IMG/VR virus record: IMGVR_UViG_2529293141_000015
Location: 1 to 64,000 of that record
From: a virus
Lineage: Duplodnaviria; Heunggongvirae; Uroviricota; Caudoviricetes
Reading direction: 5' to 3' (one strand)
Length of the DNA: 64,000 nt
Part shown: one piece after another, positions 51,816-54,800 of the stretch
Position numbering within the stretch: position 1 is the stretch's first letter
How the letters are laid out: every line of letters starts with the position of its first letter
Position numbers: made by a program

Positions 51816-54800
51816 TAATTCTGGTCAACGACCAGTTGAGCGGATTCGCGTTTAAACTCTGCGCTGAAATTTCTTTTTTTCATTATGGCACCTGTGTTGT
51901 TCTGAGGTGAGCATATCACCTCTGTTCAGGTGGCCAAATTCAGTAAACCACTTCAGGCCTGATATGGAAAGGCCCCGAGTCAACTTTAACGTTAACCCGA
52001 GGCCCTGACCGTACAACCTTCACAAGTAGTAGGTTAGCGCCTCTCCATTCAGGAGACAAGCGTTATGTCGCAAAAATCGCTCATCACCGTCACAATTTGC
52101 ATGACGGTTATCTTCACCATCTGGATGTTGCACGGTTCACTGTGTGAGTTCCGGCTGAATTTGTGGGGAGCGGAGTTTGCGGCGTTCTTACAGTGTAAGC
52201 AGTAGGAAAACCGCGACGGGGACGAAAGTCCCCGTCAACTGGTTGCTGAGGTTCAGCCGATATGGCACCCGTTTGTAGTGTATGTTTTATACAATGCAGG
52301 CTGACAGAGAGAGGTAATATTTATCAATGGTAAATAATAACCACAGAAAATGTTTTGTTTTTTCTGAGTAATACTGGTGTTATTTAGGGTAAGTTTTTGA
52401 TGCGTATTGCATTCTTGTGATTTTAATCATTAATTTTTCTTAACCCATTGATTTTAATATTTTATTTGCCTTGTTATTATGAGTAGTATCCCTGAAGACA
52501 TTTGCGTTCCGAATGTCAACATATTTATAACATGATTTAACATAGGGTGCACATCATGAAAAAGGCAAGCAAGCTGTTGTTGGCTTTAATGCCGGCATTA
52601 AGCCTGTCATTATTTTCTGCCGGGGCGTATGCCAGTGGTTATTCCGTTACACCTGAAAGTCTGAATAGTAATTCAATGACTCAGGGTGACTTTTTGAAAG
52701 GTATCGGTGTATATACACAAAATGGAGAACCATTAATTAAGCTTGAGAATGGTCAGGTTACTCCTCTTAAAGGGAATACACCAACCTCATTAAATATAGA
52801 CGCTGTTTCCGGTAAATATTTGAAATATACCTTAATTGATTATGGTAAAGCTGGCCTGACAGATACCGAGTTAGTTGCTCCAAGGGGAGACATCGTCTCA
52901 TATTATGATTACGCGAATGAGACAGCTTATTTTGTAAACACAAAAACCAATCAAATTCTGTTTAGTGCAGATGGCGAAGGAGTTGTCTCGACAGTAGGCG
53001 CTGATGGAAAAACATATTCAAGACATATTCCTGAAATTAGTGAATATATTTATGAAATTAAAATGAAGGCTGTGCAATATGGAGCCACTATTGACACTGG
53101 TCTTTCTGCTGCAGATGTAACAGATATTCACGCCCGTCTGTCTTCTCTGGGCACCGGTAAAACTCAGGTTGGTGGCGGGGCAACAGCAGGCGGAGAAAAC
53201 GCCACTGCTGTCGGTTACAACGCCACTGCAAACCATACGAACAGTGTTGCTGTAGGGGCTAACTCTCAGACCACTCGCCCCGATGAAGTTAATGTGGGGA
53301 ATCGTGTAATTGGTGGGCTTCGTGATGGTGTTCAGGCTGCGGATGCCGCAACCTATGGTCAGTTAGAGCGCTATCGTATTGCAGAAGAGAATGCCCGTAT
53401 TCAGGGTGATGCACAGACACTGAAGTCTGCTAATACCTACACAGATAACCGGGTCAGTACCCTGGAGCGTAGTACTAATCAGCAATTCCGTCAGTTACGT
53501 GATGAGGTGGAGAAAAACCGTAAACGTGCAGATGCAGGTATTGCAGGAGCAATGGCGATGACTGCCATTCCTGTTGTTGAGGGTAAAACGTACTCCTTTG
53601 GTATGGCTGCAAGTAACTACCGTGATGAGCAGGCTATCGCAGCAGGTATGCACTTCCGCACCACTGAAAATTCTGCTGTACGTTTGAATGCTTCATGGGA
53701 TACCCAGAACGGTTCAGGTGTTGCTGCGGGTATGTCTGTCGGCTGGTAATTTATTTTTTGCGGAGAACGCCAGCCGTGTTGGTTATCGGAAGCGTTCTCC
53801 GTCATCCTTCTGTCGCTGAAGACACAGCACAGTCACATTGTTCTTTTTTGTGGTGAGAGTGTGAGTGAAAAAATTCTCCGGTATATGCAGCGTGTGGTGA
53901 GAAATTCCCGCAACCCTGAATTTATGAATGAAGTTAAAGACGCCTGCTTTAAAAAGCAGGCGTTTTGTTTTGAGGCACCTGATGGCTTTCTGGTGCTGCG
54001 TTCTGTGCTCAGTGCTGATGGTATCCCTTATGTTCTGGTGTTGCTGGGCGTGTGTACGGGGAGTAACAGTGTTGAGCGTTATCTGCCGGAGGTGAAGACA
54101 TTAACCCGTCTGGCTGGCGGACGTTGGGCTGAATTTCATACGGCAAGGCGGGGATTTATCCGGCTGGGAAAACGTCTGGGCTTTGAGCGAATGCCGGATG
54201 ATGAGGATGGCTTCATGGTGTTCAGGATAGCGGTCTGACTGCCACAGTTTTCATCATCGTGTTTAAACCAACATTGCAATTCACATTCTGACCCTGCTCC
54301 GGCAGGGTTTTTTTATTATCCAGGGGGCCATTATGGGTGGAAGTAAAGGTGGTGGTGATACCAAAGTAAAACCAACAGCAGCGCAAATAGCACAGGAAGA
54401 AGTGGCCTGGAAAGGGTGGCAGGATTACAAAAATATCCTCCGCCCGGCTGAAGATAACTTCATGGAAAAGGTCGATGACCTGAACAGTGAGCAGCAGTAC
54501 GACAATATTGCTGGCACCACAAATCTGGGGTATCAAAAACAGTTTGGCGAAGCGCGGAAGGAGCTGGCAAGTAATCTCACTCGGTCCGGTGTTGACCCGT
54601 CCAGTGGTCGCTTTAACGCGGTAATGAATGCGAACCAGAGTGATCAGGTAACCGGGCAGATTGACACAACCACACGGGGGCAGGTATCGCAGGCAGATAA
54701 GTATGTTGCCGGGCTACAGGATGTTGCTGCTCTCGGTTCTGGTCAGAAGGCGGATGCGTTACAGAGTTTTAACTCTCTGGCAGACAGCAGTCTGGCAAAA

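What the first reader, a model, noticed from the sequence alone, without database searches (positions are those of the whole stretch)
52065..52206. Unannotated 46-codon Hok/Gef-like type I toxin ORF immediately beside IS911 copy 2
The manually translated peptide has a single hydrophobic helix and the Hok-family SLCE and AAFL motifs. It lies about 110 bp from the IS end, so the insertion may have displaced its promoter or mok/sok control region, as is known for IS-linked chromosomal hok loci in E. coli K-12. A GC hairpin (gacgggga...tccccgtc) follows the ORF. Below the ORF-track threshold, so easily missed.
Basis: partly seen in the sequence, partly recalled or inferred. Interest (0 to 1): 0.5.

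Follow-up and report, generated by a model that had tools for sequence, protein, structure and literature searches.

The report
Hok toxin gene split by IS
The 46-codon ORF is a real, already catalogued Hok/Gef-family membrane toxin gene common in E. coli prophages, and here an IS911-like insertion sequence has landed inside its regulatory mRNA leader, cutting the promoter and 5' control element off from the toxin gene; this is an ordinary example of a known kind.

Summary
The ORF at 52065-52205 (+) encodes a 46-aa peptide that passes Pfam HOK_GEF (33.2 bits, cut-off 22). It is identical to RefSeq WP_000078907.1, 'Hok/Gef family protein'. The whole ~355-nt module occurs in 1750 of 5426 complete E. 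coli genomes and in Stx phages such as 933W.

It is not the characterised hokW-sokW locus. That locus lies about 13 kb away in 933W and Sp5.

The 1250-bp IS (50706-51955, 3-bp duplication GGC) sits inside the hok transcription unit, 41 nt after the predicted mRNA start. The predicted promoter and the 5' 'tac' element (50630-50705) are left on the far side.

With the IS removed in silico, the mRNA folds with 5'/3' end pairing as in plasmid R1 hok.

No conserved mok frame exists in this subfamily.

None of 5426 genomes carries this IS junction. A sister prophage has IS1 inside the same ORF.

The locus is most likely a silenced toxin with an intact antitoxin RNA. It is a known gene and a known type of event, so interest is low.

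The parts
50630..50658 (+). Predicted hok promoter: -35 TTGCCG (50630-35), 17-nt spacer, -10 TACAGT (50653-58). It is now separated from hok by the IS.
   Evidence: The geometry matches the R1-type hok locus, with the -10 lying 6 nt before the mRNA 5' G. TTGC at the -35 and a TA.A.T -10 are kept in the 14 IS-free homologues whose upstream sequence was retrieved, 15 with the window's own reconstruction. The match to consensus is weak (8 of 12) and the promoter scan did not report it. Inferred, not shown.
50665..50705 (+). First 41 nt of the hok mRNA leader, including the tac-like 5' end GGGTGCCTTTCGGCTGA. Positions 50703-50705 (GGC) are the left copy of the target-site duplication.
   Evidence: Position 1 of the Rfam RF01794 model aligns to this GGGUGCC in IS-free loci (35.6-37.1 bits, E 3e-5 to 7e-5). 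In the reconstructed mRNA, nt 1-7 and 10-17 pair with nt 336-353. These pairs hold in 92-96% of cells across 12 homologues.
50706..51955 (-). IS911-like IS3-family insertion sequence, 1250 bp, with orfA and orfB on the - strand. It is flanked by a 3-bp direct repeat GGC (50703-05 and 51956-58).
   Evidence: Searches show the ends TGAAGTGG…CCACTTCA. It is 100% identical to a second, inverted copy at 8784-10033. Identical copies in RefSeq are annotated 'IS3-like element ISEc52 family transposase'. IS-free relatives read straight through …CCTGAAGGCCTGATG….
51959..52064 (+). Remainder of the hok leader. It holds the ucb-like box GGAAAGGCCCC (51966-51976), the Sok target region, and the SD AGGAG (52051-52055) enclosed in a local hairpin (52035-52065).
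   Evidence: The alignment to IS-free loci and to R1 is. The 3'-truncated mRNA refolds its 5' end onto GGAAAGGCCCC. The SD hairpin folds at -13.5 kcal/mol, z = -3.1. Its outer stem is paired in 100% of cells across 12 homologues.
51960..52024 (-). Predicted Sok-like antisense RNA of about 65 nt: a single-stranded 5' tail followed by a long hairpin (arms 52006-51991 and 51984-51969). The 5' and 3' ends are estimates.
   Evidence: The fold is -32.1 kcal/mol, z = -5.0, with 0 of 200 shuffles as good. The antisense strand is more stable than the sense strand in 12 of 12 homologues (-27 to -35 against -16 to -25 kcal/mol). It contains G·U pairs that would be C·A mismatches in the sense strand, and the upper stem exists in two sequence versions that both pair. 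No transcript data are available.
52031..52059 (-). Predicted sok promoter: -35 TTGTCT (52059-52054), 17-nt spacer, -10 TAACCT (52036-52031). It overlaps the hok SD region.
   Evidence: The position and 17-nt spacing match TTGCGC-17-TATCCT of the R1-type locus (that this is the R1 sok promoter is from my own knowledge). The AGGTTAGCGCCTC block is invariant in 12 homologues. The scan threshold was not reached. Inferred.
52065..52205 (+). hok-family toxin ORF, 46 aa plus stop.
   Evidence: Pfam PF01848 scores 33.2 bits against a cut-off of 22 and PHROG 251 scores 85.8 bits. The peptide is identical to WP_000078907.1, 'Hok/Gef family protein'. The exact sequence occurs on at least 1000 contigs. 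Computable pairwise dN/dS values are 0-0.6.
52215..52236 (+). It is the counterpart of the 3' stem-loop of the processed hok mRNA.
   Evidence: The fold is -20.4 kcal/mol, z = -4.3. Four of nine pairs show compensatory changes on both sides among 12 homologues, and 97% of cells are paired. The R1 counterpart protects the truncated mRNA from 3' exonucleases (PMC9841398). On the - strand it also fits a terminator pattern.
52253..52270 (+). fbi-like 3' element TCAGCCGATATGGCACCC, complementary to the 5' end that now lies beyond the IS. Homology between the different genomic contexts ends here.
   Evidence: Searches show that every homologue ends its conserved block at GGCACCC or a near variant.

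Best explanation
This is a complete hok/sok-type type I toxin-antitoxin module of a 46-aa Hok subfamily carried as a moron by E. coli prophages. An IS911-like element has split it.

Intact form, inferred by analogy with R1 hok/sok and from folding and conservation. A weak promoter makes an mRNA of about 355 nt. Its 5' end (tac-like) pairs with its 3' end (fbi-like), which keeps the mRNA closed. Trimming at the 3' end back to the G+C stem-loop lets the 5' end refold onto the GGAAAGGCCCC box. A Sok-like antisense RNA of about 65 nt, made from a promoter overlapping the hok SD, pairs with the leader and would trigger decay. If Hok is made, it inserts in the inner membrane and kills or lyses the cell.

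This window, shown by sequence. The IS sits 41 nt into the leader. The promoter and tac lie 1.25 kb upstream of the rest, while sok, the SD, the ORF, the 3' stem-loop and fbi are intact.

Predicted consequence, inferred. hok has lost its own transcription. Any read-through RNA lacks a nearby tac element. The toxin is therefore silenced while the antitoxin RNA is still made.
For: Family membership:
-.

Contiguity of the leader in IS-free relatives, and the exact 1250-bp insertion with GGC duplication:
-.
- The nearest IS-free relative is 99.7% identical.

Leader homology to the hok/sok RNA family:
- Rfam scores fall from 35.6-37.1 bits in IS-free loci to 18.2 bits in the window.

Folding and pair counts:
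- The 5'/3' end pairing appears in the minimum-energy fold of the reconstructed mRNA, and the 5' end refolds after 3' truncation.
- 96.4% of cells are paired, against 33-43% for slid controls, and the 3' stem-loop shows compensatory changes.

Antisense hairpin:
- It is stronger than the sense strand in 12 of 12 homologues, with z = -5.0 in the window.

Element-by-element correspondence with an R1-type locus:
-.

R1 genetics:
- Single substitutions that break the tac stem abolish toxicity (PMC9841398).

IS hits in this locus:
- A sister prophage carries IS1A inside the ORF.
Against: - No expression data exist.
- Neither predicted promoter reaches the consensus-scan threshold.
- Rfam scores stay below the gathering score of 59, even for intact loci.
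- The tac-fbi helix varies only on one side (G·U changes), with no compensatory pair. The tested structure was also derived from one of the aligned sequences.
- The subfamily has no conserved mok, so its translational control may differ from R1. Predicted SD accessibility changes little between mRNA forms.
- The ORF lies on the same strand as the flanking late genes. Anti-terminated late transcription during prophage induction could still reach it across the IS.
Confidence: 0.75

Rival explanations
1. The toxin is still expressed despite the IS. The ORF lies on the same strand as the tail-fibre gene upstream and the YadA-like gene downstream. Q-antiterminated late transcription on prophage induction, or read-through from the displaced hok promoter across the IS, could carry the ORF. 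Hok would then be made late and help lysis, as reported for HokW.
For: The ORF, the SD and sok are intact and identical to functional-looking alleles. Gene orientation is shown. HokW of Sp5 is produced after mitomycin C and roughly doubles phage release (PMC8621323).
Against: HokW is a different locus. The SD lies in a conserved hairpin. In R1, tac-stem mutants are not translated. A 1.25-kb IS read in antisense is likely to reduce read-through. Whether this prophage is inducible is unknown.
Confidence: 0.2
2. A decaying remnant. The whole module is non-functional cargo, and the intact ORF only reflects how recent the insertion is.
For: The junction is absent from 5426 complete genomes. The closest IS-free relative is 99.7% identical. 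Both point to a very recent event. A sister prophage has IS1 in the ORF, annotated as a pseudogene.
Against: This is compatible with the main explanation rather than opposed to it. Across the family the peptide is under purifying selection, so the intact form is functional.
Confidence: 0.4
3. A chance ORF with fortuitous Hok-like motifs.
For: It is short, and short ORFs abound in the region.
Against: Pfam scores above its gathering threshold. PHROG gives 85.8 bits over the full length. All 12 homologues, down to 75% DNA identity, keep 46 codons, and computable pairwise dN/dS values are below 1.
Confidence: 0.01

Closest known systems
hok/mok/sok of plasmid R1 (parB)
   Same: Both have a Hok/Gef peptide with the SLCE…AAF motifs. 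The 5' tac and 3' fbi end complementarity is shared. An antisense RNA gene has its -35 overlapping the hok SD and its hairpin complementary to the leader. A G+C stem-loop follows the stop codon.
   Different: The peptide is 46 aa against 52 aa, and only 34% identical over 32 residues. There is no conserved mok frame. No terminator hairpin is conserved after fbi. Rfam scores are below gathering. The context is a prophage moron rather than a plasmid.
hokW-sokW of Stx2 phage Sp5 / 933W (PMC8621323)
   Same: It is a Hok-family type I module carried by the same phages. PHROG 251, 'MokW-like host killing', covers both names.
   Different: It is a separate locus. HokW is 51 aa (MKQQKAM…). It lies at about 58.7 kb on the opposite strand in 933W, against 45.5 kb for this one. 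Only hokW-sokW has been tested experimentally.
Chromosomal hokA of E. coli K-12
   Same: It is the best NCBIfam model (NF007290, E = 9e-10), and some databases name the peptide 'protein HokA'.
   Different: The score of 38.4 is far below the equivalog cut-off of 89, so it is not HokA.
IS-associated hok loci of E. coli K-12 (for example gef/hokC with IS186)
   Same: An insertion sequence is thought to disturb the long-range mRNA control of a hok gene (PMC3562002).
   Different: In K-12 the IS lies downstream and affects fbi. Here an IS3-family element lies in the 5' leader and removes the promoter and tac.

Membership tests
Hok/Gef toxin family (Pfam PF01848) | Profile match above the curated threshold | tested here: met
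   33.2 bits against a cut-off of 22, E = 4e-8, residues 8-44. PHROG 251 scores 85.8 bits.
Hok/Gef toxin family (Pfam PF01848) | Small peptide of about 50 aa with one N-terminal hydrophobic helix and a conserved Cys-containing C-terminal part | tested here: met
   46 aa. Hydrophobic stretch at residues 6-23. C27 and C44 are conserved in 12 homologues.
Hok/Gef toxin family (Pfam PF01848) | Toxicity on expression; inner-membrane damage | not testable with these tools
   No experiment on this paralogue was found.
hok/sok type I toxin-antitoxin locus (R1 paradigm) | cis-encoded antisense RNA complementary to the hok leader | tested here: inconclusive
   A conserved antisense-biased hairpin and a positionally homologous promoter are present. 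There are no transcript data, the promoter is below the scan threshold, and Rfam RF01794 scores 18-37 bits against a gathering score of 59.
hok/sok type I toxin-antitoxin locus (R1 paradigm) | 5' tac / 3' fbi long-range pairing of the full-length mRNA | tested here: met
   Met for the IS-free reconstruction and for relatives: it appears in the MFE fold, and 92-96% of cells are paired against about 40% for slid controls. In the window itself the two elements are 1.25 kb further apart.
hok/sok type I toxin-antitoxin locus (R1 paradigm) | mok reading frame overlapping hok and coupling its translation | tested here: not met
   Eight of 12 distinct homologues have no start codon in any frame that crosses the hok ATG, and the leader indels are not multiples of three. 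The nearest relative has a 61-codon frame from ATG45, which the window has lost (ATG to ATA at 51964).
HokA equivalog (NCBIfam NF007290) | Score at or above the equivalog cut-off | tested here: not met
   38.4 bits against a cut-off of 89.
hokW-sokW locus | Same locus and sequence as the published HokW (51 aa, MKQQKAM…) | tested here: not met
   The primer-derived hokW sequence maps about 13 kb away on the other strand in 933W and VT2-Sakai. It was not found in the window.
IS911 / IS3 family | About 1250 bp, terminal inverted repeats TGAAGTGG…, orfA and orfB in consecutive frames, 3-bp target duplication | tested here: met
   Searches show 1250 bp and the GGC duplication; copy 1 has a CTC duplication. 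RefSeq names 100%-identical copies 'ISEc52 family'. IS911 proper and ISEc52 could not be told apart without ISfinder.

The most novel reading that the evidence does not exclude
This 46-aa Hok subfamily is the second, untested hok locus of 933W/Sp5-type Stx phages and is also present in P2-like and lambdoid prophages and next to ykgM. It may work without any mok leader peptide. Translation would then be gated directly by the conserved SD hairpin and the tac/fbi switch, with the Sok-like RNA acting only through duplex-triggered decay. In the IS-split allele the orphaned sok promoter reads into the IS in the sense direction of its transposase, and the orphaned hok promoter reads into it in antisense, so the toxin-antitoxin promoters could modulate transposition.
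Probability: 0.3. Interest if true: 0.35.

Novelty: already known. Interest (0 to 1): 0.2.

Why it matters
The main value is correct annotation. The ORF should be labelled as a Hok/Gef-family toxin gene whose transcription unit is interrupted, not as an intact toxin-antitoxin system. It adds one more example of insertion sequences disabling hok loci, this time at the 5' leader rather than the 3' end. It also shows that Stx phages carry a second hok module, distinct from hokW-sokW, that occurs in a third of complete E. coli genomes. That module appears to lack mok and has not been tested experimentally.

Tried and rejected
- With an alignment, the species-representative genome scan returned only one 857-bp contig labelled Xanthomonas pisi with an identical ORF. 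This is probably contamination and says nothing about distribution.
- The promoter scan found no sigma-70-like site at its threshold, on either strand, anywhere in 50550-52600. The promoter calls therefore rest on positional homology and conservation only.
- PADLOC gave no hit.
- I first suspected the ORF was hokW. I rejected this after reading PMC8621323 and mapping its primer sequence.
- Predicted SD accessibility in the full-length, 3'-truncated and tac-deleted forms changed only slightly: 0.19-0.22 rising to at most 0.38, and back to baseline without tac. This is too weak to carry the argument.
- I checked for an inversion between the two inverted IS copies and rejected it. Each copy has its own matching 3-bp duplication.
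- Papers found with 'hok' plus '933W' contained nothing on this locus.
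Full report
**Observation**

The + strand ORF runs from ATG 52065 to the TAG ending at 52205, which is 46 codons. The peptide is MSQKSLITVTICMTVIFTIWMLHGSLCEFRLNLWGAEFAAFLQCKQ. It has a single hydrophobic stretch at residues 6-23 and the motifs SLCE and AAFL.

The insertion sequence ends at 51955, which is 109 bp before the ATG. The stem-loop GACGGGGAC/GTCCCCGTC lies at 52215-52236. It folds at -20.4 kcal/mol, z = -4.3.

**Family**

- Pfam HOK_GEF scores 33.2 bits against a gathering score of 22 (E = 4e-8).
- PHROG 251, 'MokW-like host killing', scores 85.8 bits over the full length.
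- The best NCBIfam model is HokA, but at 38.4 bits it is far below the equivalog cut-off of 89. The peptide is therefore a Hok-family member but not HokA.
- The exact peptide is in the public protein collection on at least 1000 contigs. It is named 'Hok/Gef family protein', 'protein HokA' or 'small toxic polypeptide'. RefSeq annotates it as WP_000078907.1.
- All 12 diverged homologues examined keep 46 codons. Twenty computable pairwise dN/dS values among seven of them range from 0.00 to 0.60.

This is a real gene under purifying selection, and it is already catalogued.

**Distribution and context**

The 341-nt module of an IS-free relative matches 1750 of 5426 complete E. coli genomes at 75-100% identity. 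Nearly all matches are full length, and some genomes hold up to 9 copies. It also matches 198 phage records, mostly Stx phages including 933W and VT2-Sakai. Homologues were found in four contexts:

- after lom in 933W-type Stx phages;
- after ogr in P2-like prophages;
- between gpJ and a tail-fibre gene in a lambdoid prophage;
- next to the L31 paralogue gene.

Homology between these contexts starts at the predicted promoter and stops at GGCACCC. That defines a self-contained module of about 390 bp, which behaves as a moron.

**Not hokW**

The only experimental paper on a Hok locus of these phages is PMC8621323. It deals with hokW-sokW of Sp5. HokW is 51 aa and starts MKQQKAM, according to the primer YO-357. 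The primer sequence for the hokW 5' end maps to 58.7 kb on the - strand of 933W and to 60.1 kb of VT2-Sakai. The present locus lies at 45.5 kb and 46.9 kb on the + strand. These phages therefore carry two hok modules, and this one has no experimental literature that I could find. The window contains no hokW copy. If the layout matches 933W, hokW would lie beyond the window's end.

**Where the IS sits**

The IS spans 50706-51955 (1250 bp), has TGAAGTGG… ends and carries orfA/orfB on the - strand. It is flanked by GGC on both sides (50703-05 and 51956-58).

Three IS-free relatives read continuously through …GGGTGCCTTTCGGCTGATGGCTGGAGGG(T/A)GAACCTGAAGGCCTGATGTGGAAAGGCCCCGAG…. One of them is 99.7% identical to the window. 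The sequence to the left of the IS (50620-50705) is therefore the missing upstream part of the hok locus.

Rfam's RF01794 model represents the hok leader in the sense orientation. It aligns end to end with the IS-free loci, starting at GGGUGCC, with 35.6-37.1 bits and E of 3e-5 to 7e-5. These scores are below the gathering score of 59. In the window the match drops to 18.2 bits.

Taking that G (50665) as the mRNA start, the IS lies after nt 41. An R1-type locus has the same geometry, with a -10 hexamer 6 nt before the first G.

**Anatomy of the module**

I removed the IS and one GGC copy in silico to reconstruct the intact locus.

- *End pairing.* The reconstructed 357-nt RNA has a minimum-energy fold in which nt 1-7 and 10-17 pair with nt 336-353. 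These are GGGUGCC…CGGCUGA and UCAGCCG…GGCACCC. Removing 30 or 50 nt from the 3' end makes the 5' end refold onto GGAAAGGCCCC at 51966-51976. This is the tac/fbi then tac/ucb switch described for R1 hok (PMC9841398).
- *Pair counts.* On 12 distinct homologues, the four helices I specified are paired in 96.4% of cells, against 33-43% when partners are slid by 1-3 columns. The post-ORF stem-loop has compensatory changes at 4 of 9 pairs. The end-pairing helix changes only on one side, through G·U, so it is compatible with the model but not proven by covariation. The structure was also derived from one of these sequences.
- *SD hairpin.* The SD AGGAG (52051-55) sits in a conserved local hairpin.

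**Antisense gene**

The - strand of 51956-52024 folds into a 16-bp hairpin with a free 5' tail. The energy is -32.1 kcal/mol, z = -5.0, and none of 200 shuffles folds as well.

In all 12 homologues the antisense strand folds better than the sense strand (-27 to -35 against -16 to -25 kcal/mol). This is because of G·U pairs, which would be mismatches in the sense strand. The upper stem also exists in two different sequence versions that both pair.

A candidate promoter is TTGTCT-17-TAACCT (52059-52031, - strand). It occupies the same position as TTGCGC-17-TATCCT in the R1-type locus. That this is the R1 sok promoter is from my own knowledge. Its -10 lies in a block that is invariant in all homologues.

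The segment between the -10 and the hairpin would be the recognition tail of the antisense RNA. It is the most variable part of the locus, as expected if paralogues avoid cross-talk. The whole antisense gene lies to the right of the IS, whose end is 13 nt beyond the base of the hairpin, so it appears intact.

**No mok**

In 8 of 12 distinct homologues, no frame crossing the hok ATG contains any start codon. The leader indels are 1-2 nt long.

The window's nearest relative has a 61-codon frame from an ATG at nt 45. In 933W the same ATG opens only 8 codons. The window has ATA there (G to A at 51964).

The R1-type mok start, just after the GAGG that follows the target hairpin, has no counterpart here. 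This defining feature of the R1 paradigm is not met. The subfamily works like hok/sok in its RNA architecture but probably not in its translational coupling.

**Consequence of the insertion**

What the sequence shows: the promoter and tac are separated from sok, the SD, the ORF, the 3' stem-loop and fbi.

What is inferred: hok loses its own transcription, and read-through RNA would have no nearby tac. In R1, single substitutions that break the tac stem abolish toxicity.

My in-silico SD accessibility figures point the same way but only weakly. The most likely state is a silenced toxin with a still-active antitoxin RNA.

The main caveat is that the ORF shares its strand with the flanking late genes. 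Anti-terminated late transcription during induction might still reach it. HokW is made only after induction.

**How unusual is the event**

A 160-nt probe across the IS/leader junction finds no full-length match in any of 5426 complete E. coli genomes. The allele is therefore private to the source strain and recent.

A closely related prophage in strain 2015C-3121 has IS1A inside the same ORF, annotated as a pseudogene. In K-12 gef/hokC an IS186 lies downstream and is thought to disturb fbi (PMC3562002). IS hits in hok loci are therefore a known theme. The 5'-leader position is a minor variation on it.

**The IS itself**

Two 100%-identical copies lie in inverted orientation, at 8784-10033 and 50706-51955. 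Each has its own 3-bp duplication, CTC and GGC, so no inversion has occurred between them. RefSeq labels identical copies 'IS3-like element ISEc52 family'.

**Verdict**

The gene and the kind of event are both already known. Interest is low, apart from the point that this widespread second hok module of Stx phages, apparently without mok, has not been studied.

Noticed in passing
window 8784-10033 and 50706-51955: Two 100%-identical 1250-bp IS911-like copies lie in inverted orientation about 40.7 kb apart. Each has its own 3-bp target duplication (CTC and GGC), so both are simple insertions and no inversion has occurred between them.
   Followed up: yes
window 51964: There is a G-to-A change 9 nt from the IS end that none of the other 11 aligned homologues carries. 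Ten of them read ATG there; lambdoid_IBS28 diverges across this stretch. It destroys the ATG (nt 45 of the leader) and creates a new ATG two bases on, in a different frame. In the nearest relative the lost ATG opens a 61-codon frame that overlaps hok.
   Followed up: partly
window 52547-53749 (+): A 400-aa ORF with a signal peptide lies just downstream of hok. RefSeq annotates the homologue as 'YadA-like family protein', a trimeric autotransporter adhesin-like moron. In 933W a different gene (L0129) occupies this place.
   Followed up: no
window 48841-50610 (+): A tail-fibre ORF ends directly before the hok promoter. In the near-identical relative it is annotated as a tail tip fibre pseudogene missing its C-terminus. 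The lom gene that precedes hok in 933W is absent here.
   Followed up: no
window 5331-5513 and 16725-16912 (-); 26312-26525 (+): The Rfam gathering-level hits are two C4 antisense RNA plus isrK pairs about 11.4 kb apart, and one STnc100 sRNA. The duplicated C4/isrK pair suggests two immunity or antirepressor modules, or a duplication, within the window.
   Followed up: no
L017 (E. coli 2015C-3121), locus 1673-2527: A sister prophage, 99% identical, carries IS1A inside the same hok ORF, which RefSeq marks as a pseudogene. This is an independent IS hit on the same module.
   Followed up: partly
L005 (NZ_JPLE01000227.1, 857-bp contig labelled Xanthomonas pisi): The only hit among species-representative genomes is a tiny contig with a 100%-identical hok ORF, in a Xanthomonas assembly. 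It is probably E. coli or Stx-phage DNA contamination.
   Followed up: no
window 52214-52237 (-): Read on the - strand, the post-ORF stem-loop is followed by CGGTTTTCC and fits an intrinsic-terminator pattern. It might also stop transcription coming from downstream on that strand.
   Followed up: no
window 50630-50705 and 52031-52059: After the insertion, the predicted hok promoter points into the IS in antisense to orfB. The predicted sok promoter points into the IS in the sense direction of orfA. Either could influence transposase expression.
   Followed up: no
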